Origin: Candidatus Poribacteria bacterium
Lineage (GTDB): Bacteria > Poribacteria > WGA-4E > WGA-3G
Direction: 5' to 3'
DNA: 64,000 bases
Assembly: GCA_964291315.2 (NCBI GenBank)
Contig: OZ219753.1
Location: 3,136,001 to 3,200,000, forward strand
The notes beneath the pieces are model-generated. The model searched no databases and was not told the origin of the DNA. It saw only the letters and a program-made list of their open reading frames with translations. The stretch's first letter is position 1, and each line of letters begins with the position of its first letter. The translations under genes and the position numbers were made by a program. Below are positions 42,635-60,203 of this stretch, in pieces.

Positions 42635-43105
42635 ATGGCGAGAAAATCGCACGTTCAAACCGCTATTAATGGTGAAACGGTGGAATTTCTATGTGAGCCC
42701 CGGCAGAGTTTGCTGGAAATTCTCAGAGATGAACTCCACCTTACTGGTGCTAAAGAGGGATGCAACAACGGAAATTGTGGTGCCTGTTGTGTCATTCTCG
42801 ATGGCAGACTCGTCAATTCATGCTTGGTCTTGGGGGTCGAGACTGAAGGCAAATCCGTTGAAACGATCGAAGGACTTGCTGAACCCGAAAAATTGCACCC
42901 CATTCAGGAAGCTTTCCTCGAAAACGCAGCGCTTCAATGCGGTATCTGTACTCCGGGCTTTATCATGAGTGCGAAAGCACTTCTTGATAAAACCCCAAAC
43001 CCGACTGAACACGAAATTCGATACTGGTTGGCCGGAAATTTATGTCGCTGTACCGGTTACGATAAAATTGTTCGAGCTGTGCTCGACGCAGCCGCAGCTA
43101 TGTGA
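42635..43105 (+). CDS. Xanthine dehydrogenase-family 2Fe-2S subunit
   Basis: [27 protein letters not shown]. Confidence 0.95.
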
Positions 43106-43135
43106 AAGGAGCGTCTCTCGACGAAAAAATAGAAA

Positions 43136-45391
43136 ATGGCTGATAACAAAGAATACAAAGTTGTTGGAACCCGACCTATCCGCCATGACGGCGTTGACAA
43201 GGTCACCGGCCGGGCTCTTTACGGGGCAGATTTTCAGATCACAGGACTCCTTCACGGCAGGGTGCTTCGGAGTCCACATGCCCACGCCCGAATCCTCTCA
43301 ATTGACACGAGTCGTGCCGAAGCTCTTCCGGGAGTCAAAGGGGCAGTCACTGCACAAGACTTGCCTACCGCTGAGGACAGAGTCGCAGACCTCGGTGAGG
43401 GAGCTGTCAATCTCAAATATCTCTGCGATAACATTTTAGCGAACGACAAGGTGCTGTACAAAGGACACGCAGTTGCTGCAGTTGCTGCGACGGACCCGCA
43501 CATTGCAGAAGAGGCATGCAAACTGATTGATGTTGAATATGAGGTGCTGCCCCCTGTGCTAGAGGTGCGTCATGCTATGGAGTCGGATGCGCCTCTCCTG
43601 CACGAGAATCTGAAAACTACTTCACTGGGTGAAACTGCTGAGGAACCGAGCAACATTGCAAGTCACATCCAACATAAAAAGGGCGATACTGAGAAAGGGT
43701 TCGCGGAAGCAGATGTCGTCATTGAACGGGACTTCGTTACAGGCACTGTCCACCAAGGCTACATTGAACCGCACAATGCCACGGCACATTTCAACCAAGA
43801 CGGTCAGCTGACCATTTGGTGTAGCACACAAGGGGCGTTTACTGTTCGTGAGCAGGTTGCTGAGATCCTCCACTATCCGATTTCTAAAATTAAGGTTGTC
43901 CCGATGGAGATCGGGGGAGGCTTTGGTGGCAAAATCAGCGTCTACATTAAACCGGTGGCAGCACTGTTAGCAAAGAAAACAGGCAAGCCGGTCAAGGTCT
44001 TGATGAGCCGCACGGATGTGTTTGAAGGTACAGGACCGACCCCGGCCTCTTACATCCGCGTCAAGATGGGGGCTACTAAGGACGGTAAGCTAACTGCGGC
44101 TGAGGCGTATCTCGCTTTTGAAGCGGGAGCTTATCCCGGCTCCCCGGTTGGCCCCGGGGCCATGTGTATCTTTGCACCTTACAACATTGAAAACGTCCTC
44201 ATTGACGGTTACGATGTTGTTGTGAACAAACCGAAAACCGCTCCGTATCGCGCACCGGGGGCAACAAACGCAGCTTTCGGTTCAGAGACAGTGCTTGACG
44301 AGATCGCCGAAAAGCTGGGCATAGATCCTCTTGAAATCCGGTTAATCAACGGTGCGAAAGAGGGGGATCGTCGTGCAGACGGTCCGGTTTACCCACGCAT
44401 CGGCTTCATTGAGTCAGTTGAGGCCGCGAAACAGCATCCACACTATGGCTCACCGAACGGGAAAAAGCACCACGGGCGTGGCGTTGCTTCTGGCTTCTGG
44501 TTTAACATCGGCTTGGAGTCGAGCGTGACGATTAATGTTAACGCCGATGGCACAATTAATCTCATTGAGGGGTCAACAGACATCGGCGGCACGCGCGCTT
44601 CCATCGCCATGCAAGCGGCAGAGGTTCTTGGTATCCCCGCGGAATCGGTGAACCCGAGCGTCGTTGACACCAATTCTGTGGGTTATACTGCTGTAACAGG
44701 TGGCAGCCGCACAACGTTCGCAACGGGGTACGCAGCGTATGAAGCAGCACAAGATGTTAAGAGACAGATGATCGATCGCGCCGCGAAACTCTGGGAGGTG
44801 GACGCATCCAAGGTCCAGTTTGCAGAGGGCGTATTTTCATCCATTAACGGCAAAGAGGAACAGATAAGTTTCCGTGACCTCTGCGCGCGTCTCGGTGAAA
44901 CCGGGGGTCCAATTGTCGGCAGCGGAACCGTAAATCCTGGGGGCGCTGGCGGTGCCTTCGCAACCCACGTTGTAGATGTGGCAGTAGACGAAGAGACCGG
45001 CAAGGTTGAAATTTTGCGCTACACCGCAACACAGGATGCAGGAAAAGCCATTCATCCGAGTTACGTTGAGGGGCAAATCCAAGGCGGTGTTGTTCAAGGC
45101 ATTGGCTGGGCATTGAATGAAGAATATATCTACAACGCCGAGGGTACGATGACAAACGCCAGCTTCCTTGACTATCGGATGCCAACCTGTTTGGACTTAC
45201 CTATGATTGATGCTGTCATTGTTGAGGTGCCGAATCCCGGGCATCCGTATGGTGTGCGTGGTGTCGGCGAAGTGCCGATCGTGCCACCGCCTGCTGCTAT
45301 CGCCAACGCTATCTACGATGCAATCGGCATTCGAATGACAGAGCTCCCGATGTCGCCAGATCGGCTTCTGAAAGCCATGGGCAAAATCTAA
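43136..45391 (+). CDS. Xanthine dehydrogenase-family molybdopterin subunit
   Basis: RSPHAHA, GGGFGGK, YRAPG, GQIQGG, GVGE. Confidence 0.95.
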   Translation: MADNKEYKVVGTRPIRHDGVDKVTGRALYGADFQITGLLHGRVLRSPHAHARILSIDTSRAEALPGVKGAVTAQDLPTAEDRVADLGEGAVNLKYLCDNILANDKVLYKGHAVAAVAATDPHIAEEACKLIDVEYEVLPPVLEVRHAMESDAPLLHENLKTTSLGETAEEPSNIASHIQHKKGDTEKGFAEADVVIERDFVTGTVHQGYIEPHNATAHFNQDGQLTIWCSTQGAFTVREQVAEILHYPISKIKVVPMEIGGGFGGKISVYIKPVAALLAKKTGKPVKVLMSRTDVFEGTGPTPASYIRVKMGATKDGKLTAAEAYLAFEAGAYPGSPVGPGAMCIFAPYNIENVLIDGYDVVVNKPKTAPYRAPGATNAAFGSETVLDEIAEKLGIDPLEIRLINGAKEGDRRADGPVYPRIGFIESVEAAKQHPHYGSPNGKKHHGRGVASGFWFNIGLESSVTINVNADGTINLIEGSTDIGGTRASIAMQAAEVLGIPAESVNPSVVDTNSVGYTAVTGGSRTTFATGYAAYEAAQDVKRQMIDRAAKLWEVDASKVQFAEGVFSSINGKEEQISFRDLCARLGETGGPIVGSGTVNPGGAGGAFATHVVDVAVDEETGKVEILRYTATQDAGKAIHPSYVEGQIQGGVVQGIGWALNEEYIYNAEGTMTNASFLDYRMPTCLDLPMIDAVIVEVPNPGHPYGVRGVGEVPIVPPPAAIANAIYDAIGIRMTELPMSPDRLLKAMGKI

Positions 45392-45756
45392 TTTACTCTC
45401 AATGCTACCGGGGTGGGGCCCGCCGCCTACCCCTACAAGTCAACCGAGTTGATAAAAACAGACAAACATCCGAAGTATGCCAACCGTTGCCATTCCCGCT
45501 CTCATGCGTAATCTTACAGACGGTGAAGAGAGCGTCTTGGTCTCTGGGACTACTGTCCGTGAAGCGATTGATAGCTTAGAAAGTCGCTACCCGGGTATCA
45601 AAGTTCGCTTGTGTGAAGGGGACCGTCTTAAACCCGGTATTGCCGTCTATATCGACGGTCTTCTCACCCGAGGGTCTCTCCGCGAACCGGTTAATGCGGA
45701 TGCGGAGATCCATTTCCTTCCTGCCATCAGCGGCGGCGCTGCCGAATCAACCTGTT
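45334..45756 (+). repeat. Direct repeat R1, copy a
   Basis: Nearly identical to 47589-48015. Confidence 0.95.
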
Positions 45757-45758
45757 AA
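45477..45758 (+). CDS. MoaD/ThiS-family protein, copy a
   Basis: Ubiquitin-like size; PAISGG followed by a short tail. Confidence 0.88.
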   Translation: MPTVAIPALMRNLTDGEESVLVSGTTVREAIDSLESRYPGIKVRLCEGDRLKPGIAVYIDGLLTRGSLREPVNADAEIHFLPAISGGAAESTC

Positions 45759-45839
45759 GATTGGTTATATGTAATCAGGCAAAAGATGGCGAATAGTCAA
45801 AAAAGTATCCCCACTATAATTCCAATCCTGATGACGAGT

Positions 45840-46323
45840 TGATGGAGTCCTCTTGGCAGCAATTTGATCTTATCGGTGCCTCGCTGACCTTCTACGGATA
45901 ACGGATGATGTGAGTACGTGCGGGCACCGCGTTGGTGGTCGGCTTCCTGTTTCTATCCCCAGCTTCCGGCCCGTCCGAAACAACGCAACGGGACACGTCG
46001 AGATTACCGGGATAACGCAGTCTGAACTCAATAACGCGGGGTTCAATATCCTACGGAGTAAGAGCAAGGCCTGCAAGTTCCCAGCGATTAACACAAAAGG
46101 GCTAATTGCTGGCCACGGCACGACACCCGAGAAGCATGTCTATACCTACACAGATACCACTGCGAAACCCATGGTCTATTACTACCAGATAGAAGCCATT
46201 TCTATGGACGGGGTGCGCACGATGTTACGGACGACGCATCTGCGTGGAAATGTCTCTGTGAGTGGTAACCTCACAACGTGTTGGGGTGAGCTGAAATCGC
46301 CAAATAGCAGACATAGCAGTTAG
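45840..46323 (+). pseudogene. 5'-truncated, degraded C-terminal fragment of a large secreted protein
   Basis: LPVS...ELNNAGFNILRS...GHGTT...YYYQIE...NLTTCWGELK with no signal peptide or RBS; start approximate. Confidence 0.65.
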
Positions 46324-46547
46324 ACAACAAACTAACCTTACAAATCAATTAACCGAACGTAGAGGGCGGAACTCATGTTTCACTCCCCAACGTTTTTTAA
46401 CCACAGTCGCTGCCTGTTTTCTTTTCGGTGATCGAAAAAAAGCTAAACTTTTTGGACCGAAACGTATATATATAAATAATAAGGCGAAACATCACCGGAC
46501 GTGAAAGTATCCGGGAGTTTTGCACTACAAGAGGAAGGAGAAAACAA

Positions 46548-46865
46548 ATGAAAACGTCTTTGTTTCAAATGCTTGTGATTCTTAGCTTCCTTACCGTAGG
46601 TTTCATGACCGTTACGTCGTTTTTTCAAGAGAGTGGGGCAGATCCAAGCGAGGTTATACATGAGAGACACGAATATTGGAGGCGGTGTATAAACCTACCA
46701 AGTTCACCACAACTCCTGTTTATTCAGAATAAGGTCTATGCGAATGGGTGGCATGAAGGGGATCACTGGAGCAGCGGTGGAAACGACTCTGTGCCGCGCC
46801 ATCTTGTATCCATAATACGCAGAACGGTTTACCATCTCCGTTGGGTACGGTGTGAGGTCGCCTAA
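46548..46865 (+). CDS. Small secreted His/Cys/aromatic-rich protein
   Basis: AAGGAG RBS; signal peptide; 105 aa. Confidence 0.7.
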   Translation: MKTSLFQMLVILSFLTVGFMTVTSFFQESGADPSEVIHERHEYWRRCINLPSSPQLLFIQNKVYANGWHEGDHWSSGGNDSVPRHLVSIIRRTVYHLRWVRCEVA

Positions 46866-46882
46866 ACCTTACCTTTTCTTTT

Positions 46883-46919
46883 TATAGGTAGGACTTGCCA
46901 GAGACAAGTTCTACCTATA
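46883..46919. other. Intergenic hairpin between small protein and partner
   Basis: tataggtaggacttg / caagttctacctata. Confidence 0.65.
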
Positions 46920-46951
46920 TCTAATCTTTAAAATAGGAGGTATTCTTAGAA

Positions 46952-47593
46952 ATGAAACGAGTTTTTTTCACTGCCGGCGCTCTAATTTTTTTAGGCATCG
47001 CTTGGACGTTATTTCTCCGGTGGGATAGGATCCGTTTTGTGGAAAGCCTACCCAAAGCGCCCGTTCGCACTGATATCCAACACGCCACAGAACAGACTCC
47101 TCAAGATCTCATTGCTGAAGACAAAAGCAGCGATGCGCTTAGAGTCCAGAGAACACAAGATGAGTCTGCCCATATAGATGAGGAAACGCCTATAGACACA
47201 ACGGACAGGCCCTTGCATCACAATGAGACTCATTCGTACCGCCCCGAACTCACTTTTCGCCATGAGTCTGAACAAGGCATTGAAACTCTCAAACCAGAGA
47301 ATAAATCCCCAATTTTTGCTCCGGATCTCTCCGCAGAGGAACTCATAGAGATGGACCGTCAGAGCTTCGTAGAAAAATACGGTAATATTCCTGAGATAGA
47401 CATATTTTTCAAATATATGTCTCCTGTTTATGAAGCGTGGGCAGCTGGGGAAAGTCAGTTTACCGTTGACAGAACCAACGAAAAAATACTTGAGTTGAGC
47501 CGCGCACAGATGGTTTTGTATCCGGATAAGCCTTATTTTAGAAAGGAATACGAACGCGCGCTAAAAATATTGAAGGAGCAAGAACAACAATGA
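46952..47593 (+). CDS. N-anchored exported protein (GDIPE-type family)
   Basis: GGAGG RBS; N-terminal TM; ELIEMDRQSFVEKYGNIPEI. Confidence 0.75.
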   Translation: MKRVFFTAGALIFLGIAWTLFLRWDRIRFVESLPKAPVRTDIQHATEQTPQDLIAEDKSSDALRVQRTQDESAHIDEETPIDTTDRPLHHNETHSYRPELTFRHESEQGIETLKPENKSPIFAPDLSAEELIEMDRQSFVEKYGNIPEIDIFFKYMSPVYEAWAAGESQFTVDRTNEKILELSRAQMVLYPDKPYFRKEYERALKILKEQEQQ

Positions 47594-48015
47594 CAGAGCT
47601 CCCGATGTCGCCAGATCGGCTTCTGAAAGCCATGGGCAAAATCTAATTTACTCTCAATGCCACCGGGGTGGGGCCCGCCGCCTACCCCTACAAGTCAACC
47701 GAGTTGAAAAAAACAGACAAACATCCATCCACAGTATGCCAACCATTGCCATTCCCGCTCTCATACGTAATCTTACAAACGGTGAAGAGAGCGTCTTGGT
47801 CTCTGGGACTACTGTCCGTGAAGCGATTGATAGCTTAGAAAGTCGCTACCCGGGTATCAAAGTTCGCTTGTGTGAAGGGGACCGTCTTAAACCCGGTATT
47901 GCCGTCTATATCGACGGTCTTCTCACCCGAGGGTCTCTCCGCGAACCGGTTAATGCGGATGCGGAGATCCATTTCCTTCCTGCCATCAGCGGCGGCGCTG
48001 CCGAATCAACGTGTT
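47589..48015 (+). repeat. Direct repeat R1, copy b
   Basis: Last about 58 nt of the Mo-subunit gene + intergenic + moaD-like gene repeated. Confidence 0.95.
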
Positions 48016-48023
48016 GGAATTAG
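47736..48023 (+). CDS. MoaD/ThiS-family protein, copy b
   Basis: Three substitutions vs copy a (V4I, M10I, D15N) and a 2-aa longer end. Confidence 0.88.
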   Translation: MPTIAIPALIRNLTNGEESVLVSGTTVREAIDSLESRYPGIKVRLCEGDRLKPGIAVYIDGLLTRGSLREPVNADAEIHFLPAISGGAAESTCWN

Positions 48024-48191
48024 TTTTAGGTATCGATGCAAAAAGCGCGCGTATGATCGGCGATTCTGCTTAAAAATGCAGGTAAAACCCCTAAAATTTC
48101 CTGATCACAGCTTTTCTTCGTAAAAAAAACGAATAAATTTGAAAAAAAATGGTTTTAAGGGCAGAATTATGCATTTTTTTGACAAATTAAT

Positions 48192-48274
48192 TTGACAAAC
48201 GCTTTTTGAAGGTGTATAATTAACATTACCTTTCAATAGGAAAGGTGGTTTTGTTCTTTGAAAGTTAAATAGTG
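48192..48274 (+). promoter_or_regulatory. rRNA promoter, boxA-like element and 5' processing-stem strand
   Basis: TTGACA-17-TATAAT (48192-48220); tgttctttgaaagttaaatagtg pairs with cactatctaactttcaaaaaca at about 49967-49988. Confidence 0.85.
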
Positions 48275-48338
48275 AACGTGACGTGCCTATTAAATAGCTT
48301 GTGAGTGCACTTCCATTGAGAAGATGTACTTCAATACT

Positions 48339-49997
<1,659 letters not shown>

Positions 49998-50073
49998 AAC
50001 AAATGTTCTAACACATCCTACCTTGCTACAACTTATCTTGCAAAGAACCTCCAATTAGAGGAGATCAATCAAC

Positions 50074-50847
50074 ATGTGGAAAGATGTTCTCTTCAACAAA
50101 CGTTTTTTTACTGGCCTCGTTTTTCTCACGCTTCTTATTGTAGGCAGCATCATCTGGTATGAAAGTGAAATACGCAAATTACGAAAGAGCGAGGCAAAAA
50201 CTCAGGTATTTCTCGACGCTTTAAAGAAAGACACCCTAGCTACCAAAGATGGTGAAGAGAATCCGGACTTGGCCATTTCACAGTCGGAAACCACAACAGC
50301 ACCTCTGGTGGTTGAAGAAAATGAAATGCAGACATTACAACAAGAGAATTTTATCAGGGACGATCAAAGTATGGAGACTGCGGAGCCCCTGAGAAACAGT
50401 AAGACTGGTGACATAATAGGTGAATCAAATTTAATAAATGACTTTCCAGAAGTTCCTGAAGGGTTTCCATCCGACCTTATTCCGGTTTGGGTTCACCTCC
50501 CGAATTATCAAAAAGGTGATATGTACGGACATGAACTGATGTATCGGGTTTTGATAAAACTCTGGAATCAGGGCGATCACGATTTTGTAAACGGCATCTA
50601 TAGCCACAATAATGGCCGCGTCTACCCACTCTGTAATGATGTGCTGTATGTTGAATGGGACGATGAGGTTGTTAATGGTAAAACTATTAGGTTTCCAGTT
50701 GCTACGACTGGAGCAATGGAATATCCCTTTACAATTGAGGAACAGATCACAGGAAGTTACTTAACGAAATATCCCGGCCTCAAGTTTGTTGATTGGCATC
50801 AGGCGGGATATGACCCTGAAACTTTTCTGAGTGCTGATGAAAAATAG
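50074..50847 (+). CDS. N-anchored exported hypothetical protein
   Basis: GAGGAG RBS; TM; FPEVPEGFP...ELMYRVLIKLWNQG. Confidence 0.8.
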   Translation: MWKDVLFNKRFFTGLVFLTLLIVGSIIWYESEIRKLRKSEAKTQVFLDALKKDTLATKDGEENPDLAISQSETTTAPLVVEENEMQTLQQENFIRDDQSMETAEPLRNSKTGDIIGESNLINDFPEVPEGFPSDLIPVWVHLPNYQKGDMYGHELMYRVLIKLWNQGDHDFVNGIYSHNNGRVYPLCNDVLYVEWDDEVVNGKTIRFPVATTGAMEYPFTIEEQITGSYLTKYPGLKFVDWHQAGYDPETFLSADEK

Positions 50848-50929
50848 TAGACACTGTGTCAAAAAGGTTATCCGACTTTTTTTGCAATTGATACGATCAC
50901 TGTCATGTTCAGTGCAACAGGGGAAAATT

Positions 50930-51036
50930 ATGATACGGAAACCTAGCTTCTCGGTTACATTATCAGTATTGCTGCTCACATTTTCTGTCACAGTTAGGTT
51001 AGGGGCATATGGTGTTTTTACCACTGCACATCGAAA

Positions 51037-51055
<19 letters not shown>
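50930..51055 (+). pseudogene. Signal-peptide gene stub fused to the 16S fragment
   Basis: MIRKPSFSVTLSVLLLTFSV...AHRN runs into rRNA sequence at 51037. Confidence 0.5.
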
Positions 51056-51842
<787 letters not shown>

Positions 51843-51904
51843 TCGGAACCTAGCTTCACAGACAGTAAACACTTTGTCTACACCCCTTAGGAAAAGGAGA
51901 AAGA

Positions 51905-52261
51905 TTGATGTTTTTCTTCACTCGTATGATGGTTATCCTCTATATGTTGAGTATCATATCATTTGCTTGGATACCGCATGCAGAAGCCGGCTGGGGCGTC
52001 GAGATCGTTACAGATATACATTCGCCGTGTTATGCATCCCACCCCGGGTATGGTAGCTACTATTGCGGCACTAAAACCAATACACGCTATGAGTATGAAA
52101 GTCCACCTGAGCCACCAGCTCATTATTGGTATTATCTTGATCGATATAATAGGCAAATTCCTGTACACGTTGAGCATCCACGAGAACGGCGAAATAAACG
52201 ATTAGTCATTTTTCGGAAAGAAAGCACTTGCATGGAATGCGATTTCGGTGTTGTCTATTAA
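51905..52261 (+). CDS. Small secreted Tyr/His/Cys-rich protein
   Basis: AAGGAG RBS; signal peptide ending AEA; four Cys. Confidence 0.7.
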   Translation: MMFFFTRMMVILYMLSIISFAWIPHAEAGWGVEIVTDIHSPCYASHPGYGSYYCGTKTNTRYEYESPPEPPAHYWYYLDRYNRQIPVHVEHPRERRNKRLVIFRKESTCMECDFGVVY

Positions 52262-52270
52262 CATTTGACT

Positions 52271-52299
52271 CGTGCGGATAGAAGATTTCTATCCGCACG
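52271..52299. other. Perfect 13-bp hairpin between small protein and partner
   Basis: cgtgcggatagaa-gat-ttctatccgcacg. Confidence 0.8.
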
Positions 52300-52317
52300 T
52301 ACTCGATTGGAGTTTTT

Positions 52318-53037
52318 ATGAAATTATGGATGGTTGCAGCAACCCTGTCTATTCTCTTGGCTTGTGGGTTCCTCGTTTATACAAAATGGGAAAAGCAGCA
52401 TTTTTTAGAAGGTATTCCGAAAAATCCGGGACTCGAAAATCTTCCGAAACATCGAGCTGTCGACTCTACGGAACCCTTTAAGACACAAGAGCTAAAAACT
52501 GAACAGAATACACAACGGCATCCGAGATTAATTTTTGAACATACTGAAGACAGAAACTATCAGATAGAATCCCCGGATGAACATGCCGCCCCAAATTGGG
52601 ATGACAACGAATCCCCCGCTGAACAAAGCCAGGACCCCTGGGGAGACATGATCGACAAGGAGCGGATCAAAGCACGTGGGGCTTATATCGAGGATCCGGA
52701 AAACATGGAACTCGGAGAACTTGTTGAGGCGGAACGTCAACAACTCATTGAGCGATTTGGAGATATTCCTGAAGTGAGTCTTTATACTTCTTTGAAACCA
52801 GGATACTTGGTTGGGAAACTAAATCTTGACGAACTGATAACTTTTCTCAAAGCCCAATATTCACTCTTTCCAAGCGAAAGTACTCGGAAGTCAATTGTCT
52901 TACGCGAATGGGAAAAATCGAGGGATGATAGAGGCGTTAGGCATCAAGATCCAACAGAGGCGGATCTAGAATATCTCAAATCCCAGGGTATTACTGTCAG
53001 AAGGACAAGAAACCGTTTAACGATTACCAGTGAATAA
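52318..53037 (+). CDS. N-anchored exported protein (GDIPE-type family), copy a
   Basis: TM; ELVEAERQQLIERFGDIPEV. Confidence 0.8.
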   Translation: MKLWMVAATLSILLACGFLVYTKWEKQHFLEGIPKNPGLENLPKHRAVDSTEPFKTQELKTEQNTQRHPRLIFEHTEDRNYQIESPDEHAAPNWDDNESPAEQSQDPWGDMIDKERIKARGAYIEDPENMELGELVEAERQQLIERFGDIPEVSLYTSLKPGYLVGKLNLDELITFLKAQYSLFPSESTRKSIVLREWEKSRDDRGVRHQDPTEADLEYLKSQGITVRRTRNRLTITSE

Positions 53038-53166
53038 GAATTAGCGATTGCAAGCATATCGTTTTCGGAAACACTTTTGACAGCGCCACATTCCAGCAGA
53101 TCCAATTCCGCTTTCGGTTTCCGGCGATGACAATAGACAAGGTTGTAAAATTTAAGGACACATTGT

Positions 53167-53430
53167 ATGTTAAGGAAAAAGAACCTGCTTATAATAGGCG
53201 GGGTCTGTTTCCTCATAGGGGCTATTTTCCTTTATCTACACACTTCTTCCCGAAGAGTTAGCGAAGAAGTGAAGCCGCACCTTAAAAAGCTTTATGCCCT
53301 TTCGGGTGAACTGACTCTAGCACAAAAACTGGAATATATCGAGATAATGGCTGCCATTCAGGCCGTTCATAATCAAACGCCCCTCCCGGTGGAAAGATGT
53401 TCTCTCCAGCAAACTCGCTTTCAATTTTGA
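53167..53430 (+). pseudogene. Truncated copy of 57063..57605
   Basis: First 74 aa match, then fused at 53389 to sequence matching 58124 onward. Confidence 0.85.
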
Positions 53431-53455
53431 AAAACCCCATTTCTTAGGAATTAAT

Positions 53456-53484
53456 TTGACAAATCCTACTGCTGAGCGTATGAT
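53456..53484 (+). promoter_or_regulatory. Duplicated tRNA promoter
   Basis: AATTAATTTGACA-17-TATGAT, homologous to 58192-58220. Confidence 0.7.
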
Positions 53485-53558
53485 TAATATTGCGTTTTGC
53501 CAAGAACAGCTCGGCGGTCCTTCCCTAAAGACTGTCTTTTCTTCAAGATACCTCTCAT

Positions 53559-53612
53559 AGGCTTATAGCTCAGGCAATTAGAGCACCCCTGATAAGCGCG
53601 AGGTTTCTGGTC
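53559..53612 (+). pseudogene. Degenerate, 3'-truncated tRNA-Ile(GAT)
   Basis: ggcttatagctcag...ttagagc...cctgataagcgcgaggt; ends in the T-arm. Confidence 0.8.
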
Positions 53613-53671
53613 CACCGTGTGTTTATAGTTCGGCTGATTGTCTTTAACTAACAACAAAGGAGAACACTTTA

Positions 53672-54520
53672 ATGAAGCATTTACGTACACCCTATCGCCT
53701 GTTTATAGGTGCCCTGATTGTCTTTGTCGGCATCTTTGCTTTAAGGACGCTCTACCTCAGGCATGCTGAACGTGAGACGCAAGAAGCGATTAAATTGGCA
53801 CCGCTGCCGACAGGGACTATCCAAACCCCCTCTATAGAAGAAACATCAGAAGGCGGACGTTTCCGAACCGGCGGCGCAGAGCATGCACAACCGGGCGAAA
53901 CGACTCATTTAGATGAGGCAGAGACATCCTCACAAAAGACCATTGTTGAGAATACCACTAGTGTTAAGAAACAGCCCACTCCTCTTGAAATGAAACTGCT
54001 GGAGCGTGGGATTGACATTAGCAAATTACCGCGCGGGCCCAATGGGGAACTTCTTAAAGGAGCAACAGGCGGAATCGCACTCGTTCCCAATCCTGTTGCC
54101 CCTACACAGAAAGACATTGAAAGAGCTAAGAAAGATAGACAGCTCAGGGAATGCCTTGCAGAGATTGAAACGGAACTTCTAAAATTTCCGTCCGATGGCA
54201 CTATAGGCAAGGAACCGTTCCTCAAAGTCCTTGATTTGCAAGAAGAGAAATTCCGTATAGAACGAGAGTTGGGCGTTCAATTGCGAGGTACTGCTGATCC
54301 GATTATAGGGGTAGAAATCGCAAGACATGCGATGAACGTTATGACTGATGAGGGGATCCCCGTCTCTGGTGTCCCTCGTTTCATAGAATTATTTGAAGAA
54401 CTGGGGGCTTTGGAGTTAGCACGTCTGTTTCGGCTTGCTGCGGAGAATGCTGTTCGAAACGGTGAAGGTTTCTTTCATTCTCCGCTAGAAATACAACACG
54501 GAGAATCAGATGAACCTTAG
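53672..54520 (+). CDS. N-anchored exported hypothetical protein
   Basis: AAGGAG RBS; N-terminal TM. Confidence 0.75.
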   Translation: MKHLRTPYRLFIGALIVFVGIFALRTLYLRHAERETQEAIKLAPLPTGTIQTPSIEETSEGGRFRTGGAEHAQPGETTHLDEAETSSQKTIVENTTSVKKQPTPLEMKLLERGIDISKLPRGPNGELLKGATGGIALVPNPVAPTQKDIERAKKDRQLRECLAEIETELLKFPSDGTIGKEPFLKVLDLQEEKFRIERELGVQLRGTADPIIGVEIARHAMNVMTDEGIPVSGVPRFIELFEELGALELARLFRLAAENAVRNGEGFFHSPLEIQHGESDEP

Positions 54521-54621
54521 ATTTTTATTTATATGCCTTTTATTGATGGGCTCTTTTTTTAGTTTTGCCGATAACGAGTCAGGATTCTAGCAAGGCAGCC
54601 TTTTTAAAAGGAGATGACGGT

Positions 54622-56071
54622 ATGACACGATCGAAATACCTTTGGCTATTCTCTCTTTTAATCGTTTTAGCAATAATAGCCTTTTTTCTTTTTCGATTAC
54701 AGGAACCCTCTAAGAACGCTGCCGCCCCATCAAACCTGAAAACGACTGAAAAGAAGGTGCTCGGTAGTTTTGACAGTCAGACCCCAATGCAGACAACGCC
54801 CCTTAGCAACAGCACAGACGCATGGGAGACCTGGATCGAGAAACAAACCGAAGATCTCTTGAAGTTCGCCATTTCAGATTTGTATAAACAGATACCCGCT
54901 GCACAAACGCTTGAACCAGAACAGATTGAGGACATGAAAGCCAGCTTTCGGGCACAAATAGCAGAGCATGCGGCTCGACTGAAAAACGAAAGAACCGATC
55001 CGCCACCAATAAGTCCAACCTTCGAAACAACGTATAGGACCTCCGACTTTGAGAAATACACAGGTGCCCAAACGGTAGCGGCGATCATGGAAAAATATGA
55101 TGAAGGATACACTCGCTTCCATAAGGACACACTCGCGGACACAAAGTATCCAAGAGAGGAATGGCTCGCTATGCTGCTGGATCGCGGGATCACTATAGAG
55201 ACAATTCTGGACTATCAGAGCTACCTGCAGATACGCAAGGACTTAGCTCACTTGGAGAACAATCCGGGTGCCTGGGAATCGTGGGGGCACGGGGCGATCG
55301 CTCCAACGGACGACTGGGAAACCTACAAGTCTGCGTATACGGAACGGAAGATTTGGGAAGCCCAACAAGTTCAGCAAGCCCAGCGAGCAGATCCAAGCGT
55401 TGACGGCGGAATGTTTGGTGGGACGGATCGCAAAACGTTCCTTCCTATAAGGCACGACACCCTTTATGTCAAGCGACGCGGCATGAGATTCTCATTTTCT
55501 GGGGCACCCTTTAGAAATAAGACGCAAGAGTTTAACCTGATATTTCGCAGAGCCTGAGGGGTATGACATCATTTATCTGGATTCAAACGACAATATACTC
55601 AGCGAGCCGCCTCCGCCTATCACGCGGGAAGAGCTGATGAATGCGGGAGGTGCGGTGCTGCCAGAGGCGTGGTGGGAAGGCGACTTCAGCGAACAGTCCC
55701 TGACGGAGTTTCAAAGGGACGTTCCTATGCAAGAGATGCCTGAAACTCGGAGTGTAGAGGCTCCGCGTTTTGCTGCAGATGTCGAGCAAGAGATAAAGGC
55801 TCAGGTAGAGCAAGCACAACAGAGCACGGAGCGTTTATTAGAGAAGCTCACCCAGAGTGATGCTGATTTTCAGGAAGAGTTTAAGAAGCAGTTTCTGCCT
55901 GAGGTATCCGATGAGGGTTTTGAGAATACACTTCGGCGCCGTTTTTCACCGGAGCGTTTCAACGCGGCATTGCAGACGCTAAAACGTTATGGTCCTAAAG
56001 AGGGACTCCGTAAATTGAAAGAGGTTGATCCAGAAGTTGCGATACACTTAGAACGTTTAATCCAACGGTAA
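54622..56071 (+). pseudogene. N-anchored exported protein frameshifted at about 55549
   Basis: ...FNLIFR continues in the +1 frame as EPEGYDIIYLDSNDNILSEPPPPITREEL into ORF 55637..56071. Confidence 0.7.
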
Positions 56072-56085
56072 GGCGGAAAACACAA

Positions 56086-57285
56086 CGAAAGAAACGATTA
56101 GTCATTTTTCGGAAAGAAAGCACTTGCATGGAATGCGATTTCAGTGTTGCCTATTAACATTTGACTCGTGCGGATAGAAGATTTCTATCCGCACGTACCT
56201 GATTGGAGTTTTTATGAAATTATGGATGATTGCAGCAACCCTGTCTATTCTCTTGGCTTGTGGGTTCCTCGTCTATACAAAATGGGAAAAGCAGCATTTT
56301 TTAGAAGGTATTCCGAAAAATCCGGGACTCGAAAATCTTCCGAAACATCGAGCTGTCGACTCTACGGAACCCTTTAAGACGCAAGAGCTAAAAACTGAGC
56401 AGAATACACAACGGCATCCGAGATTAATTTTTGAACAGGCTGAGGACAGAAACTATCAGATAGAATCCCCGGATGAACATGCCGCCCCAAATTGGGATGA
56501 CAACGAATCCCCCGCTGAACAAAGCCAGGACCCCTGGGGAGACATGATCGACAAGGAGCGGATCAAAGCACGTGGGGCTTATATCGAGGATCCGGAAAAC
56601 ATGGAACTCGGAGAACTTGTTGAGGCGGAACGTCAACAACTCATTGAGCGATTTGGAGATATTCCTGAAGTGAGTCTTTATACTTCTTTGAAACCAGGAT
56701 ACTTGGTTGGGAAGCTAAATCTTGACGAACAGATAACTTTTTTCAAAGCCCAATATTCACTCTTTCCAAGCGAAAGTACTCGGAAGACAATTGTCTTAAG
56801 CGAATGGCAAAAATCGAGGGATGATAGAGGCGTTAGGCATCAAGATCCAACAGAGGCGGATCTAGAATATCTCAAATCCCAGGGTATTACTGTCAGAAGG
56901 ACAAAAAACAGTTTAACGATTACCAGTGAATAAGAATTAGCGATTGCAAGCATATCGTTTTCGGAAACACTTTTGACAGCGCCACATTCCAGCAGATCCA
57001 ATTCCGCTTTCGGTTTCCGGCGATGACAATAGACAAGAGTGTAGGATTTAAGGACACATTGTATGTTAAGAAAAAAGAACCTGCTTATAATAGGCGGGGT
57101 CTGTTGCCTCATAGGGGCTATTTTGCTTTATCTACACACTTCTTCCCGAAGAGTTAGCGAAGAAGTGAAGCCGCACCTTAAAAAGCTTTATGCCCTTTCG
57201 GGTGAACTGACTCTAGCACAAAAACTGGAATATATCGAGATAATGGCTGCCATTCAGGCCGTTCATAATCAAACGCCTCTTCCGG
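56086..57285 (+). repeat. Direct repeat R3, copy b
   Basis: Begins inside the 3' end of the small-protein gene. Confidence 0.95.
56214..56933 (+). CDS. N-anchored exported protein (GDIPE-type family), copy b
   Basis: 10 aa differences from 52318..53037. Confidence 0.8.
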   Translation: MKLWMIAATLSILLACGFLVYTKWEKQHFLEGIPKNPGLENLPKHRAVDSTEPFKTQELKTEQNTQRHPRLIFEQAEDRNYQIESPDEHAAPNWDDNESPAEQSQDPWGDMIDKERIKARGAYIEDPENMELGELVEAERQQLIERFGDIPEVSLYTSLKPGYLVGKLNLDEQITFFKAQYSLFPSESTRKTIVLSEWQKSRDDRGVRHQDPTEADLEYLKSQGITVRRTKNSLTITSE

Positions 57286-57605
57286 ATGAGGAAGCTCGTC
57301 GTGTGTTGCAACATGCCTATACGCTCGTTATGTCAAACCCTGAACTTATTAAATTAGGCGGTATGATAGAGGATAAGGCACACGGCAACACCCATGAACA
57401 TAATTTGACCGAGCAAGAAAGGATACAAAAAAGGCTTGATGCATCGGTTGAAGATATCTTAAGCAATCCGATACCAAAACCACAAGGTTTTACGCCGCAG
57501 CGTTTTGAAAAGGCCACGCGAACCTTGGCAGAAAAAGGGATGCGCAGCCTCGAAAAAATAGATCCTGATATGGCGAAGTATCTTAAACAACTCATTACCC
57601 CCTGA
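57063..57605 (+). CDS. N-anchored hypothetical protein
   Basis: TM; C-terminal FTPQRFEKA..TL...GMRSL..IDP motif. Confidence 0.75.
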   Translation: MLRKKNLLIIGGVCCLIGAILLYLHTSSRRVSEEVKPHLKKLYALSGELTLAQKLEYIEIMAAIQAVHNQTPLPDEEARRVLQHAYTLVMSNPELIKLGGMIEDKAHGNTHEHNLTEQERIQKRLDASVEDILSNPIPKPQGFTPQRFEKATRTLAEKGMRSLEKIDPDMAKYLKQLITP

Positions 57606-57720
57606 AAAGAAAGGAAACCGAGCTGCCGAAGAGAGGGAAGGGGATCCGAAATTGGACATTTCACAGCCAGAACCCCTGACCGCACCTCTGGTGGTTGAAG
57701 CATTGGAATGGAGGCATTTT

Positions 57721-58059
57721 ATGAAGAAGATATTTCAAAATACAATCGATTCTCTTCATCTCTTTTTTGAGATGTCTTCGGAATGGAGACGTTTTACGAA
57801 GAAGGAGCCGAAGAAGAAGCCTCGGTTGGAACTCAGTTCTGCTGCGTGGAGTTTGGTAGGCACCCTCGGATATTTATTCGCTCGACTGGTCGATCACTGG
57901 TATCCGTTTCTGATTGCTGGTTTACTTGGTGTTGTGTTTTCTTTATTTGAGGGACCACACCCCCGCCCCAAACCAGCACGCGAGGCCTACGCAGAGTATC
58001 TGGCAAGGCGGCAAGAGCAGAAAAGGCAAAGAGACTCAAGTCGTAACCCGGAAAAATGA
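57721..58059 (+). CDS. Small membrane hypothetical protein
   Basis: GGAGG RBS before ATG 57721; two hydrophobic segments. Confidence 0.6.
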   Translation: MKKIFQNTIDSLHLFFEMSSEWRRFTKKEPKKKPRLELSSAAWSLVGTLGYLFARLVDHWYPFLIAGLLGVVFSLFEGPHPRPKPAREAYAEYLARRQEQKRQRDSSRNPEK

Positions 58060-58191
58060 AGACGCATTTGCAAAGCATCGTAGACATCTTGTCAGAACCG
58101 AGTGCCTTGTTCACACGCCTCATGTGGAAAGATGTTCTCTCCAGCAAACTCGCTTTCAATTTTGGAAAACACTCATTTCTTACAAATTAAT

Positions 58192-58220
58192 TTGACAGTT
58201 CCTCTCTTAGAATGTATAAT
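58192..58220 (+). promoter_or_regulatory. tRNA promoter
   Basis: TTGACA-17-TATAAT; same ACAAATTAATTTGACA...TGTATAATTAA context as the 16S promoter. Confidence 0.85.
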
Positions 58221-58278
58221 TAATATTAGATTTGGCCAAAAAATAGGTGTTCTTTCCCTGAACATCTATATTCCTCAA

Positions 58279-58352
58279 GGGCTTATAGCTCAGACGGTTA
58301 GAGCGCGCGCCTGATAAGCGCGAGGTCCCTGGTTCGATTCCAGGTAAGCCCA
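58279..58352 (+). tRNA. tRNA-Ile(GAT)
   Basis: Acceptor GGGCTTA/TAAGCCC, anticodon loop CTGATAA, GGTTCGATTCC; CCA not fully encoded. Confidence 0.97.
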
Positions 58353-58525
58353 CCTTCCTCCCTATCGCCCCCTTCACAGTCTATCTGCGGAGATTTTAAT
58401 TGAAGAAAAATATCTGGACTGGGTTTTAATACGTGCTACGATGAAGGCTAATCGTTCATACCCGTCCATATTCGGTATTGCTGCAAGCAAGTCTGAAATC
58501 TCTGACCTGTGAGGAGAAACGTTCT

Positions 58526-60052: not shown

Positions 60053-60203
60053 GCGTTTTCATCAGCGTGGGGTGTTGCGGTCTCTTTCAGTTATCCGTTT
60101 CCAATGAGGCGACTATGTGGTAGGCAAGCGGTTTTCAACAACCAACATTCTAACTGACGATTGAAACGAACGGAGCAAAAAGAGGGACAACTTGCAACGA
60201 TAA

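What the first reader, a model, noticed from the sequence alone, without database searches (positions are those of the whole stretch)
45334..58352. Integrase-free repeat-cargo-repeat accretion zone around the 16S gene
Seen: three X-cargo-X units in 13 kb. X is ordinary host DNA: R1 45334-45756/47589-48015, R2 49192-49997/51037-51842 and R3 52190-53389/56086-57285. Each second copy starts mid-gene. The cargoes (about 1.8, 1.0 and 2.7 kb) have ragged ends that cut through genes, and consist almost entirely of lineage-specific exported proteins, all on the + strand. There is no integrase, transposase or RT, no terminal inverted repeats, and no junction motif I could see. Known: IS target duplications and att cores are usually far shorter than 0.4-1.2 kb. 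Inference: a recurring capture mechanism, such as single-crossover integration of small circles or homology-anchored illegitimate recombination, builds an excisable array of surface or secreted variants.
Basis: partly seen in the sequence, partly recalled or inferred. Interest (0 to 1): 0.85.

Follow-up and report, generated by a model that had tools for sequence, protein, structure and literature searches.

The report
Repeat-flanked insertions around a 16S gene
In a sponge-symbiont (Poribacteria) genome, the single 16S rRNA gene sits in a strain-variable patchwork of small membrane-protein genes, each patch bounded by a duplicated piece of neighbouring DNA, most likely made by ordinary recombination and not by a mobile element.

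Summary
Three direct-repeat pairs (about 424, 806 and 1200 bp; 95.6-99.75% identical) each flank unique DNA, and one repeat is a 3' fragment of the 16S gene.

It is probably not an assembly artefact. Independent unitigs from two samples bridge the junctions of units 2 and 3 at single-copy depth. The 5' tRNA-Ile remnant bounding cargo 3 is decayed. Unit 1 was not tested with reads.

Related Poribacteria have a compact xdh-ThiS-16S-tRNA-Ile arrangement or other genes in these gaps. None of 12+80 loci examined has these units.

The "cargo" is not simply captured DNA:
- One gene (57063-57605) is syntenic with G078's 16S-tRNA-Ile spacer.
- Another has its ortholog elsewhere in G068.
- All tested cargo proteins belong to multi-copy Poribacteria families.

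Copy identity drops sharply at about 53435. A contig from another sample leaves the window sequence at the same place, which marks a recombination breakpoint.

Best reading (0.55): sequential recombination between divergent alleles of a hypervariable locus, with some homologous and some illegitimate junctions. No integrase or transposase was found. Circles and a dedicated capture mechanism are unsupported. Interest is moderate.

The parts
43136..45391 (+). Molybdopterin-binding subunit gene of a xanthine-dehydrogenase-family enzyme. Its last 58 nt form the start of repeat R1.
   Evidence: Pfam MoCoBD_1, MoCoBD_2 and Ald_Xan_dh_C. Syntenic in all relatives examined.
45334..45757 (+). R1 copy a: the xdh 3' end, an intergenic stretch and ThiS/MoaD-like gene a (45477-45758).
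   Evidence: Pfam ThiS.
45758..47588 (+). Cargo 1. It holds a 3' fragment of a roughly 930-aa exported-protein family gene with its downstream DNA (45820-46425), ORF 46548-46865 (105 aa) and ORF 46952-47593 (213 aa). The 213-aa ORF is a distant paralog of the R3 gene, and its stop codon lies inside R1b.
   Evidence: No Pfam or NCBIfam hit.
47589..48016 (+). R1 copy b: 58 nt of the xdh 3' end, an intergenic stretch and ThiS-like gene b (47736-48023). It runs on into the native 16S upstream region.
   Evidence: In G017 the stretch from ThiS to the 16S end is contiguous.
48192..48220 (+). Consensus sigma-70-type promoter upstream of the 16S gene (12 of 12 positions).
48339..49890 (+). The only full 16S rRNA gene of the genome. 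The 23S gene lies on another contig.
49192..49997 (+). R2 copy a: the 3' 700 nt of the 16S gene plus 107 nt of downstream spacer.
49998..51036 (+). Cargo 2: ORF 50074-50847 (257 aa), built of a TM helix, a disordered linker and a C-terminal domain, followed by a short ORF start that is cut at 51036.
   Evidence: A single unitig covers 49968-51066 with 0 mismatches in X21, and two overlapping unitigs cover the same span in X22.
51037..51842 (+). R2 copy b: a truncated 16S 3' fragment plus spacer.
   Evidence: It has 2 mismatches to copy a.
51843..52261 (+). ORF 51905-52261 (118 aa, signal-peptide-like). Its 5' part is adjacent to the 239-aa gene ortholog in G068, so the adjacency in copy a is native.
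52190..53435 (+). R3 copy a: the 239-aa gene 52318-53037, truncated gene 53167-53430, then 46 nt that match 58124-58170. Copy a lacks the 840 bp found in copy b.
53436..53611 (+). An older, diverged copy of the tRNA-Ile promoter (53456-53484, 11 of 12 positions) and of the first 58 nt of tRNA-Ile (53554-53611). The tRNA remnant is decayed and cut at the T arm.
   Evidence: ARAGORN and Rfam call no tRNA here.
53612..56085 (+). Cargo 3: ORFs 53672-54520 (282 aa), 54565-55557 (330 aa) and 55637-56071 (144 aa, which has only the C-terminal domain shared with gene 57063-57605).
   Evidence: The junction at 53611/53612 is bridged by contigs in X21, X22 and X23. The junction at 56085/56086 is bridged in X22 and X24.
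56086..57285 (+). R3 copy b: the last 72 nt of a 51905-like ORF, the 239-aa gene 56214-56933 and the start of gene 57063-57605.
57286..58123 (+). The 840 bp present only in copy b: the rest of gene 57063-57605 (180 aa, ortholog of G078's 457-aa spacer gene), a remnant of a 50074-like gene (57607-57735) and ORF 57652-58059.
58124..58354 (+). The native tRNA-Ile promoter (58192-58220, 12 of 12 positions) and the intact tRNA-Ile(GAT) gene (58279-58354).
58478..61628 (+). Downstream flank: two ABC-2-type permease genes, syntenic in relatives.

Best explanation
The 13-kb zone is a real, strain-variable mosaic in a Candidatus Poribacteria symbiont. It was built by several sequential recombination events between divergent versions (alleles) of one hypervariable locus, the flanks of the unlinked 16S gene and its neighbouring tRNA-Ile.

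Each event added a block from another allele and left a duplicated piece of resident DNA beside it. One end of a block is joined by homology, either in the repeat itself or, at about 53435, inside the duplicated tRNA promoter. The other end is joined illegitimately, in the middle of a gene. This is the outcome expected from three routes:
- homology-facilitated illegitimate recombination;
- interchromatid (unequal) integration of incoming or sister DNA;
- Campbell-type integration of a circularised fragment.

No element-encoded enzyme is involved. The genes carried are members of Poribacteria-specific families of small N-terminally anchored proteins. Some of them were already residents of this spacer.

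Shown:
- the repeats;
- the junctions of units 2 and 3 in independent unitigs;
- absence of these units from the relatives examined;
- synteny of part of the 'cargo' with G078's spacer;
- the breakpoint at about 53435;
- no recombinase or transposase gene found.

Inferred:
- the order of events;
- that the donors were sibling strains;
- the molecular route;
- any effect on expression. All genes are co-oriented behind three consensus promoters, one of which is a duplicated tRNA promoter placed in front of cargo 3.
For: 1. The repeats are real and each has two copies in the genome.

2. Unitig evidence:
- In X21, one unitig covers 49968-51066 with 0 mismatches, so it spans the R2a end, cargo 2 and the R2b start. 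Its depth is about 998, the same as 51813-52225 (1000) and cargo 3 (about 880-1090).
- X22 gives the same span as two overlapping unitigs.
- Junctions at 51842/3 and 52190 are bridged in X21.
- 53389 is bridged in X22.
- 53611/2 is bridged in X21, X22 and X23.
- 56085/6 is bridged in X22 and X24.

3. The tRNA-Ile remnant differs from the real gene at about 8 of 58 positions, including a 2-nt deletion. The real gene is identical in G007 and G017. The remnant is therefore an old pseudogene, not a co-assembled allele.

4. Identity between the two copies is 46/48 in 53389-53435 and 60-77% in 53436-53611. A 1602-nt contig from X23 matches 53435-54250 and then continues for 787 nt with unrelated sequence to the left of 53435. 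This gives a breakpoint inside the promoter homology and a different allele in another sample.

5. Near-neutral divergence differs between repeats: about 1% in the R2 spacer, 3-4% in R3 non-coding DNA, 8% in the R1 intergenic stretch and over 20% in the old promoter/tRNA copy. This fits events of different age.

6. Comparison with relatives:
- G007, G017 and G068 have a compact xdh-ThiS-16S-promoter-tRNA-Ile arrangement.
- Other relatives carry different genes in the two gaps.
- None of 12 loci and none of 80 further xdh loci has these units.

7. G078 carries, between its 16S and tRNA-Ile, an ortholog of gene 57063-57605 (72-77% aa identity) flanked by 50074-family genes. This is the same order as the remnant in the window.

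8. The ortholog of the 239-aa R3 gene lies in G068 at a place syntenic with own contig C4 at about 1.668 Mb, where this genome has another gene.

9. Genome-wide, 37 direct-repeat pairs were screened. Only 4 have a two-copy X and cargo unrelated to the flanks, and 3 of those 4 are here.

10. No Pfam match to an integrase, transposase or RT was found, and there are no inverted repeats.

11. Published models of the same logic exist: PMC5361080 (passages read) and PMC3784515 (abstract read).
Against: - No donor allele has been seen whole. The X23 flank is known only as 30 letters and matches nothing I hold.
- The illegitimate junctions show no clear microhomology, and it cannot be measured without donor sequences.
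- X21 is probably the sample the genome was assembled from, and X21-X24 are all from one study, so support from reads is not fully independent.
- Gene conversion between copies could also produce the uneven divergence, so the order of events is uncertain.
- Natural competence or any other DNA-uptake route in this organism was not examined.
- A replicative template-switching route would give the same end product.
Confidence: 0.55

Rival explanations
1. Replication-based rearrangement at a heavily transcribed locus. Tandem duplications or template switching (of the FoSTeS/MMBIR kind; names recalled, not from a call) at the 16S and tRNA genes, followed by deletions and gene turnover, produced the pattern without any exchange between strains.
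For: - The genome is rich in local duplications: 62 direct pairs of 200 bp or more, at least 90% identical, within 20 kb.
- G077 has duplications of 872 bp and 2541 bp between ThiS and 16S that look like a partly deleted tandem triplication.
- All three units sit next to consensus promoters of the stable RNA genes.
Against: - None of the three cargoes has a second copy or a tblastx match in the adjoining DNA. Simple tandem duplication would therefore need at least five well-placed deletions.
- The truncated 16S and truncated tRNA lie in the order opposite to that expected from one tandem duplication of the 16S-tRNA segment (coordinates; the ordering argument is inference).
- The X23 contig shows a different allele at the 53435 breakpoint.
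Confidence: 0.2
2. A dedicated, recurring capture system. The locus would be an integrase-free acceptor site that repeatedly takes in small circles carrying surface-protein genes and can release them again.
For: - Three of the four 'unique cargo between two-copy repeats' units in the genome are clustered here.
- All genes are co-oriented behind strong promoters.
- Cargo proteins come from fast-evolving anchored families.
- The contents of the zone differ between samples.
Against: - No circle junction or excised form was seen. The only skip joint over cargo 2 (X23, 50012 to 51706) has a 27-letter side, which the tool flags as unreliable.
- There is no shared junction motif.
- Part of the cargo is ancestral to the spacer.
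- One junction is plain homologous recombination.
- None of 92 other loci has such units.
Confidence: 0.1
3. Decayed integrative element(s) that targeted tRNA-Ile. Cargo 3 would be the remnant of an island whose integrase has been lost, and the partial tRNA would be its att scar.
For: A 58-nt partial tRNA-Ile copy bounds cargo 3 on the left and the intact tRNA-Ile lies on the right. That partial tRNA copies bound islands is recalled general knowledge, not the result of a call.
Against: - No integrase was found in the ORFs scanned across 29.6-61.6 kb.
- The duplicated part is the 5' half of the tRNA plus at least 120 nt of upstream promoter, not a 3' core.
- Units 1 and 2 have no tRNA at all.
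- Repeats of 0.4-1.2 kb are far longer than att cores.
Confidence: 0.08
4. Assembly artefact: haplotypes of co-occurring strains were concatenated in a metagenome-assembled genome.
For: - The genome is a MAG (completeness 95.2%, contamination 3.49%).
- X21 holds two variants of cargo 3 at depths of about 600 and 439.
- The ranking of identity (16S, then coding, then intergenic) is what strain alleles would show.
Against: - The junctions cargo-to-mid-gene X exist in Logan unitigs of two samples at full population depth (about 1000 in X21), not at the depth of one variant.
- The tRNA remnant is decayed and truncated.
- A bubble between haplotypes cannot by itself create a junction from cargo into mid-16S (inference).
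- Unit 1 remains untested with reads.
Confidence: 0.05

Closest known systems
Orphan or displaced module arrays of Rhs, CDI and T6SS effector-immunity loci, thought to arise by homology-facilitated illegitimate recombination (Kirchberger et al. 2017, PMC5361080, passages read; it cites Jackson 2009 and Poole 2011, which I did not read)
   Same: New blocks are added next to a conserved anchor. Older blocks are pushed downstream and begin with a partial copy of the anchor. No integrase is involved. Arrays differ between strains.
   Different: Here the anchors are housekeeping DNA (the xdh 3' end with ThiS, the 16S 3' end, a tRNA promoter), not the conserved core of a toxin gene. The cargo shows no toxin or immunity signature. 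Only one genome shows the array.
Transformation-induced merodiploidy, in which tandem duplication arises by interchromatid integration of a partly repeated fragment (Johnston et al. 2013, PMC3784515, abstract and outline read)
   Same: It offers a route by which one recombining fragment, paired with two places, leaves a duplication. It needs only the host's recombination functions.
   Different: The duplications described there are 100-900 kb long and lie between IS-derived repeats. Here they are 0.4-1.2 kb with unique DNA between the copies. Competence of this organism is unknown.
Campbell-type single-crossover integration of a circular DNA that carries a host fragment (textbook knowledge, recalled)
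   Same: The product is exactly X-cargo-X. It can be reversed by recombination between the copies.
   Different: No circle, replicon or circular junction was seen. At least one junction (about 53435) is better read as an ordinary homologous crossover between promoter copies.
tRNA-linked genomic islands and their decayed remnants, including the tycheposon-type islands of marine cyanobacteria
   Same: Cargo lies next to a tRNA gene and has a partial tRNA copy at its far end. Contents vary between strains.
   Different: No integrase was found. The duplicated part is the 5' half of the tRNA plus its promoter. Two of the three units do not involve a tRNA.
Unlinked rRNA genes (Brewer et al. 2020, seen only as a citation in a passage of PMC7534041). 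An unlinked 16S gene beside a molybdenum oxidoreductase on a Poribacteria fosmid is recalled from Fieseler et al. 2006, which the library does not hold.
   Same: The 16S gene is separate from the 23S gene. The xdh-family operon lies directly upstream in all relatives examined.
   Different: My four library searches listed no paper whose title or abstract start reports a truncated second 16S copy or repeat-bounded insertions.

Membership tests
Insertion sequence / transposon | Transposase gene inside the unit | tested here: not met
   No Pfam or NCBIfam transposase match in the 16 ORFs scanned in 45477-58059.
Insertion sequence / transposon | Terminal inverted repeats and short (2-15 bp) target duplications | tested here: not met
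   0 inverted pairs of 60 nt or more in 43000-60000 (shorter TIRs were not searched). The flanking duplications are 424-1200 bp.
Integrative element / genomic island (tyrosine or serine recombinase) | Recombinase gene in or beside the unit | tested here: not met
   No such Pfam family among 30 ORFs between 29.6 and 61.6 kb. ORFs under 140 aa outside the zone were not scanned.
Integrative element / genomic island (tyrosine or serine recombinase) | Short att core repeated at both ends, typically the 3' part of a tRNA | tested here: inconclusive
   A partial tRNA-Ile copy bounds cargo 3, but it is the 5' 58 nt together with the promoter. Units 1 and 2 have no tRNA.
Integron | intI integrase with an adjacent attI, and attC-bounded cassettes | tested here: not met
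   No integrase match. No inverted repeats of 60 nt or more. attC-type structures were not searched specifically.
Simple tandem duplication | The DNA between the two copies recurs after the second copy or before the first | tested here: not met
   tblastx of each cargo against equal-length flanks gave best HSPs of 0, 0 and 27 aa. Most of the other 33 pairs in the genome gave over 100 aa.
Homology-anchored insertion with displacement (HFIR-type arrays) | A partial copy of the anchor precedes the displaced downstream block | tested here: met
   R1b, R2b and R3b each start mid-gene and run on into the native downstream context.
Homology-anchored insertion with displacement (HFIR-type arrays) | Alternative alleles of the same site exist in the population or in relatives | tested here: met
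   The X23 contig has different sequence to the left of 53435. G078, G068 and 11 other relatives carry different contents in the same gaps.
Homology-anchored insertion with displacement (HFIR-type arrays) | An illegitimate joint at microhomology, judged against the donor sequence | not testable with these tools
   No donor sequences are available. The junctions are listed.
Campbell-type integration of a circle | A free circular form or an outward-facing junction | not testable with these tools
   The X-cargo and cargo-X junctions of a circle are the same as those of the integrated form. Unitig depth equals single-copy depth. Long reads or PCR are needed.
Assembly artefact | Junctions absent from independent read data, or present only at the depth of one strain variant | tested here: not met
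   Seven junction points of units 2 and 3 are bridged by unitigs. X21 depth is about 1000 at 49968-51066 and at 51813-52225, whereas the two cargo 3 variants have depths of about 600 and 439. Unit 1 was not tested.

The most novel reading that the evidence does not exclude
The flanks of the unlinked 16S gene and tRNA-Ile in this Poribacteria lineage could act as an integrase-free acceptor and expression platform. Homology-anchored recombination would stack variable membrane-anchored protein genes, in one orientation, behind the rRNA promoter and behind duplicated copies of the tRNA promoter. The long direct repeats would allow blocks to be lost and regained between strains. Functionally this would be an integron-like cassette array run entirely by host recombination.
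Probability: 0.12. Interest if true: 0.75.

Novelty: new variant of a known kind. Interest (0 to 1): 0.4.

Why it matters
1. A truncated second 16S copy and 0.4-1.2-kb repeats in a MAG would normally be dismissed as misassembly. Here the read evidence indicates that two of the three units are real, which matters for how such structures are filtered in symbiont genomes.

2. The locus is a compact natural record of how recombination between strain alleles, partly homologous and partly illegitimate, can add genes without any mobile-element enzyme. It shows the same logic as Rhs and T6SS orphan arrays, but anchored on housekeeping and stable RNA genes.

3. One of the events placed a copy of a consensus tRNA promoter in front of three genes of unknown function, and other genes now lie directly behind the 16S gene. 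If these genes are transcribed from those promoters, Poribacteria-specific anchored proteins would be expressed at very high level in a sponge symbiont. This is a testable lead on symbiont surface biology.

Tried and rejected
**One event for units 2 and 3.** I considered that units 2 and 3 are a single insertion of a 2575-bp allelic fragment running from mid-16S to mid-tRNA-Ile (51037-53611). I rejected this as the main reading for three reasons:
- Its three homologous parts differ greatly in divergence (about 0.25%, 2.4% and over 20%).
- X23 has the old promoter, the tRNA remnant and cargo 3 with a different left flank.
- From reading the sequence shown, stop codons follow within about 12 codons of 53612 in all three frames, so the ORF cut at 51036 cannot run on there.

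**Parts without read cover.** X23 and X24 have no cover of 50111-50954 (cargo 2). X23 has little cover of 51799-52220, although its cargo 3 depth is about 4000. This hints that those samples lack cargo 2 and the 5' part of ORF 51905. No reliable contig joins across the gap, because the only joint (50012 to 51706) has a 27-letter side. I therefore do not use it as evidence.

**Similarity between the cargo 2 tail and 51843 onwards.** The local alignment scored 23, against a shuffle mean of 18 and maximum of 30. This is chance.

**Which 16S copy is ancestral.** At 49460 the partial copy carries the base seen in 43 of 47 relatives' matches and the full gene carries the minority base. The second site is mixed. 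The result is not informative.

**Donor loci for cargo 1.** The best relative of ORF 46952-47593 is a 38%-identical broken ORF in G068, far from its 16S. No donor was found. A 211-aa gene between ThiS and 16S in G079 looked similar by eye but gave no blastp match at E below 0.01.

**Metagenome scans.** A 41-letter pattern from the 16S spacer and the 33-letter cargo 2/16S junction each gave 0 matches. I take this to reflect limited coverage of the collection and not evidence on the structure.

**Naming the cargo.**
- Pfam and NCBIfam gave nothing above cut-off. The only hits were weak: DUF6376 at E = 2.4e-4, below its cut-off, and two chance-level hits.
- The ESM Atlas gave no usable hit for the 257-aa protein.
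- The full-length model matched only coiled coils through its long helix.
- The C-terminal domain model (pLDDT 93.9) had no PDB match: best Foldseek E = 0.3 and best VIA-align Z = 2.4. This shows neither a new fold nor the absence of relatives.

**Loose ends.** The X23 loose end to the left of 53435 and four other loose ends matched nothing in the genome or in the 121 loci held.

**Earlier notes of this scan.** None near the window.

**Papers.** Four library searches listed no paper whose title or abstract start reports repeat-bounded insertions or a truncated 16S copy in Poribacteria. Supplementary files were not consulted.

Full report
**1. The observation**

- R1: 45334-45784/47589-48043, 95.6% identical.
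- R2: 49192-49997/51037-51842, 99.75% identical (2 mismatches).
- R3: 52190-53389/56086-57285, 97.6% identical (29 mismatches, no gaps).

Against the whole 4.4-Mb genome (4 contigs; the window is C4:3136001-3200000), each repeat has two copies only.

Rfam finds one full 16S gene (48339-49890), a partial copy (51074-51722, model positions 874-1520) and one tRNA. ARAGORN calls the tRNA tRNA-Ile(GAT) at 58279-58354. The only 23S gene is on contig C1, so the rRNA genes are unlinked.

R1 comprises the last 58 nt of a xanthine-dehydrogenase-family molybdopterin subunit gene, an intergenic stretch and a ThiS/MoaD-like gene. Homology ends at the ThiS stop codon.

No inverted repeats of 60 nt or more were found. 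No integrase, transposase or reverse-transcriptase family was found in the 16 ORFs of the zone, in 4 flanking genes, or in 10 upstream ORFs of 140 aa or more.

**2.

R3 continues in a diverged form. 53389-53491 matches 58124-58227 (87%), and 53554-53611 matches 58274-58333 (83%). This stretch is the promoter and the first 58 nt of tRNA-Ile.

The remnant at 53554-53611 carries about 8 changes, including a 2-nt deletion, and stops at the T arm. The intact tRNA-Ile is identical in G007 and G017.

Copy a lacks 840 bp that copy b has (57286-58123). This truncates gene 53167-53430 relative to gene 57063-57605.

Three consensus sigma-70-type promoters lie on the + strand:
- before the 16S gene (48192-48220, 12 of 12 positions);
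- before tRNA-Ile (58192-58220, 12 of 12);
- the duplicate before the tRNA remnant and cargo 3 (53456-53484, 11 of 12).

**3. Is it an assembly artefact?**

The genome is a metagenome-assembled genome (completeness 95.2%, contamination 3.49%).

Four runs of one study (organism C) hold the stretch 49900-56200, with word shares of 0.88, 0.58, 0.31 and 0.30.

I laid Logan contigs of the four runs on 49900-56200. I chose this stretch so that it holds only one copy of each long repeat. The results:
- In X21, one 1099-nt unitig covers 49968-51066 without a mismatch. It spans the R2a end, cargo 2 and the R2b start. Its depth is 998, the same as the unitig 51813-52225 (depth 1000), which bridges 51842/3 and 52190.
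- X22 covers the same cargo 2 span with two overlapping unitigs (0 mismatches), bridges 53389 (53353-53617) and bridges 56085/6.
- X21, X22 and X23 bridge 53611/2. X24 bridges 56085/6.
- X21 holds two variants of cargo 3 at depths of about 600 and 439, so strains are mixed. The cargo 2 and 51813-52225 unitigs, however, are at the full depth.

X21 is probably the source sample and all four runs belong to one study, so this support is not fully independent.

Together with the decayed tRNA remnant, these results lead me to give the artefact reading about 5%. Unit 1 could not be tested.

**4. Relatives**

The record titles of 80 loci found with the xdh-family protein name Candidatus Poribacteria (78 of 80). 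The runs are sponge-associated.

In 12 loci from 11 genomes of the same genus the order xdh-ThiS-16S-tRNA-Ile-ABC-2 genes is kept:
- G007 and G017, and also G068, have the compact form. ThiS is followed directly by the 16S promoter region, and the 16S spacer is followed within 8-86 bp by the tRNA-Ile promoter.
- Seven others carry three genes (3-keto-disaccharide hydrolase family, PhyH family, polysaccharide deacetylase) between ThiS and 16S.
- In 7 of 9 loci examined, a 250-290-aa signal-peptide protein gene lies between 16S and tRNA-Ile.

None of the 12 loci has repeat-bounded units.

In the 80 further xdh loci, 17 include both 16S and tRNA-Ile. Their distance ranges from 107 to 2878 bp, against 8389 bp here. 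No locus shows a second 16S piece within the 6 kb covered.

One genome, G077, has a comparable but different structure between ThiS and 16S. Repeats of 872 bp (97.9%) and 2541 bp (94.6%) duplicate the deacetylase and the three-gene block.

**5. The 'cargo' is not simply captured DNA**

- G078 carries three genes between its 16S and tRNA-Ile: 279 aa, 457 aa and 271 aa. The 457-aa gene is the ortholog of 57063-57605 (72% and 77% aa identity at its two ends). The other two belong to the family of cargo 2's 257-aa protein (31-35% identity).
- In the window, gene 57063-57605 is followed by a remnant of a 50074-like gene (57607-57735, 44% aa identity, E = 1e-6). This is the same order as in G078.
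- The 239-aa R3 gene and the 5' part of ORF 51905-52261 have their only close nucleotide match in G068 (82% and 80%). There they lie side by side at a place syntenic with own contig C4 at about 1.668 Mb, where this genome has a DNA-methylase-like ORF instead. The adjacency in copy a (51905 then the 239-aa gene) is therefore the native one, and the left edge of copy b (cargo 3 joined to the last 72 nt of a 51905-like ORF) is a novel joint.
- Cargo 1 starts with the 3' end of a gene of a roughly 930-aa family, which has 29 other partial nucleotide matches in the genome.
- The 330-aa and 257-aa cargo proteins have relatives in 64 of 65 and 48 of 65 genomes of the genus, usually in several copies and at 25-50% identity.
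- 122 database proteins match the 257-aa protein at E of 1e-5 or below. All those that carry a name come from Poribacteria.

**6. A dated breakpoint**

Between the two copies, identity is 46/48 in 53389-53435 and 60-77% from 53436 to 53611.

The X23 contig (1602 nt, depth about 4350) matches the window from 53435 to 54250. To the left of 53435 it continues for 787 nt with sequence unlike the window. The 30 letters shown occur nowhere in this genome or in the loci I hold.

The step in identity and the departure of another sample's contig thus fall at the same base, inside the promoter homology. I read this as a homologous crossover that joined a younger block (51843-53435) to an older promoter/tRNA remnant already sitting in front of cargo 3.

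Near-neutral divergence supports events of different age:
- R2 spacer: 1 in 107.
- R3 non-coding parts: 3-4%.
- R1 intergenic stretch: 7 in 89.
- Old promoter/tRNA copy: over 20%.

Gene conversion could blur these figures. The 239-aa gene copies differ at 5 synonymous and 10 non-synonymous codons, so they are not under strong purifying selection.

**7. Is it a recurring process in this genome?**

I screened 37 direct-repeat pairs (300 bp or more, at least 90% identical, at least 500 bp between the copies, less than 20 kb apart). Thirty have cargo homologous to the adjoining DNA (best tblastx HSP of 33 aa or more, mostly over 100 aa), which marks tandem paralog arrays. Three more have multi-copy repeats. 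Only four have a two-copy repeat with unrelated cargo: C1:217440/222260 and the three in the window. The clustering is striking, but it is one locus in one genome.

**8. Mechanism**

In each unit the first X keeps its native upstream context and the second X keeps its native downstream context. The product therefore equals the insertion of 'cargo plus a copy of X'.

This product is expected from three known routes:
- single-crossover integration of a circle;
- homology-facilitated illegitimate recombination on replicating chromosomes;
- interchromatid integration.

Published models of that kind exist. One covers T6SS immunity arrays and Rhs orphan tips (PMC5361080, passages read). Another covers transformation-made duplications (PMC3784515, abstract and outline read).

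I favour sequential exchange between divergent alleles of this hypervariable locus (0.55). Replication-based duplication or template switching comes second (0.2). The evidence does not decide between the molecular routes. Circles, excision and expression from the stable RNA promoters remain untested.

**9. The cargo proteins**

All main ORFs are on the + strand. Most begin with a hydrophobic helix. None has a Pfam or NCBIfam assignment above cut-off.

The 257-aa protein is predicted as a long N-terminal helix, a disordered linker and a compact C-terminal domain. Modelled alone, the domain reaches pLDDT 93.9 and pTM 0.86 and finds no match among solved structures (best Foldseek E = 0.3, best VIA-align Z = 2.4). 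Its function is unknown.

**10. Verdict**

Part of the cargo is ancestral to the spacer.

I file this as a new variant of a known kind, namely homology-anchored insertion with displacement or duplication, here anchored on a 16S gene, a tRNA promoter and a housekeeping operon end. Interest is 0.4.

Noticed in passing
window 50074-50847 (and paralogs at own C4:1675-1687 kb): A protein family named only from Poribacteria records (122 database proteins at E of 1e-5 or below; 14 matches in this genome). It has a TM helix, a disordered acidic linker and a 137-aa C-terminal domain. The domain is modelled at pLDDT 93.9 and has no match among solved structures (Foldseek E of 0.3 or higher, VIA-align Z of 2.4 or lower).
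   Followed up: partly
L016:10023-10775, and the same place in L017, L019-L023: In 7 of 9 relatives' loci examined, a 250-290-aa signal-peptide protein gene with no Pfam match lies between the 16S gene and tRNA-Ile. The tRNA has its own consensus promoter and the 23S gene lies elsewhere. This is an unusual layout for an rRNA locus.
   Followed up: partly
L120 (G077) 1394-8873: Another Poribacteria genome has repeats of 872 bp (97.9%) and 2541 bp (94.6%) between ThiS and 16S. They duplicate the polysaccharide deacetylase gene and the three-gene block, and 1.5 kb of DNA without long ORFs lies between the two blocks.
   Followed up: partly
window 45820-46425 and 29 other places in the genome: The 3' 400-500 nt of a roughly 930-aa exported-protein gene family, plus about 100 nt downstream, are conserved at 77-82% across all copies. 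Copies often come as tandem pairs about 2.9 kb apart.
   Followed up: no
own genome C4:1675150-1687923: A 12.7-kb array of paralogs of the 257-aa cargo 2 protein, with many internal repeats. It sits where G068 has only 234 bp between the syntenic flanking genes.
   Followed up: no
own genome C4:1668290-1668991: At the place where G068 carries the ortholog of the 239-aa R3 gene, this genome has a 234-aa ORF with a DPPY motif. I judged it DNA-methyltransferase-like by eye; it was not scanned.
   Followed up: no
own genome C1:217440-217905 / 222260-222737: The only other two-copy repeat in the genome (93% identical) that flanks unrelated DNA. The 4.35 kb between the copies holds four ORFs.
   Followed up: no
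window 39487-41471 and 29649-30584: A Type III R-M methylase N-terminal domain ORF (184 aa) overlaps the start of a 480-aa N6/N4 methylase ORF, which may be one gene read as two. A second DNA methylase gene lies 10 kb upstream.
   Followed up: no
L116:3792-4319: In a distant Poribacteria record (xdh protein 79% identical), a gene of the 257-aa cargo 2 family lies about 560 bp downstream of the xdh-family gene.
   Followed up: no
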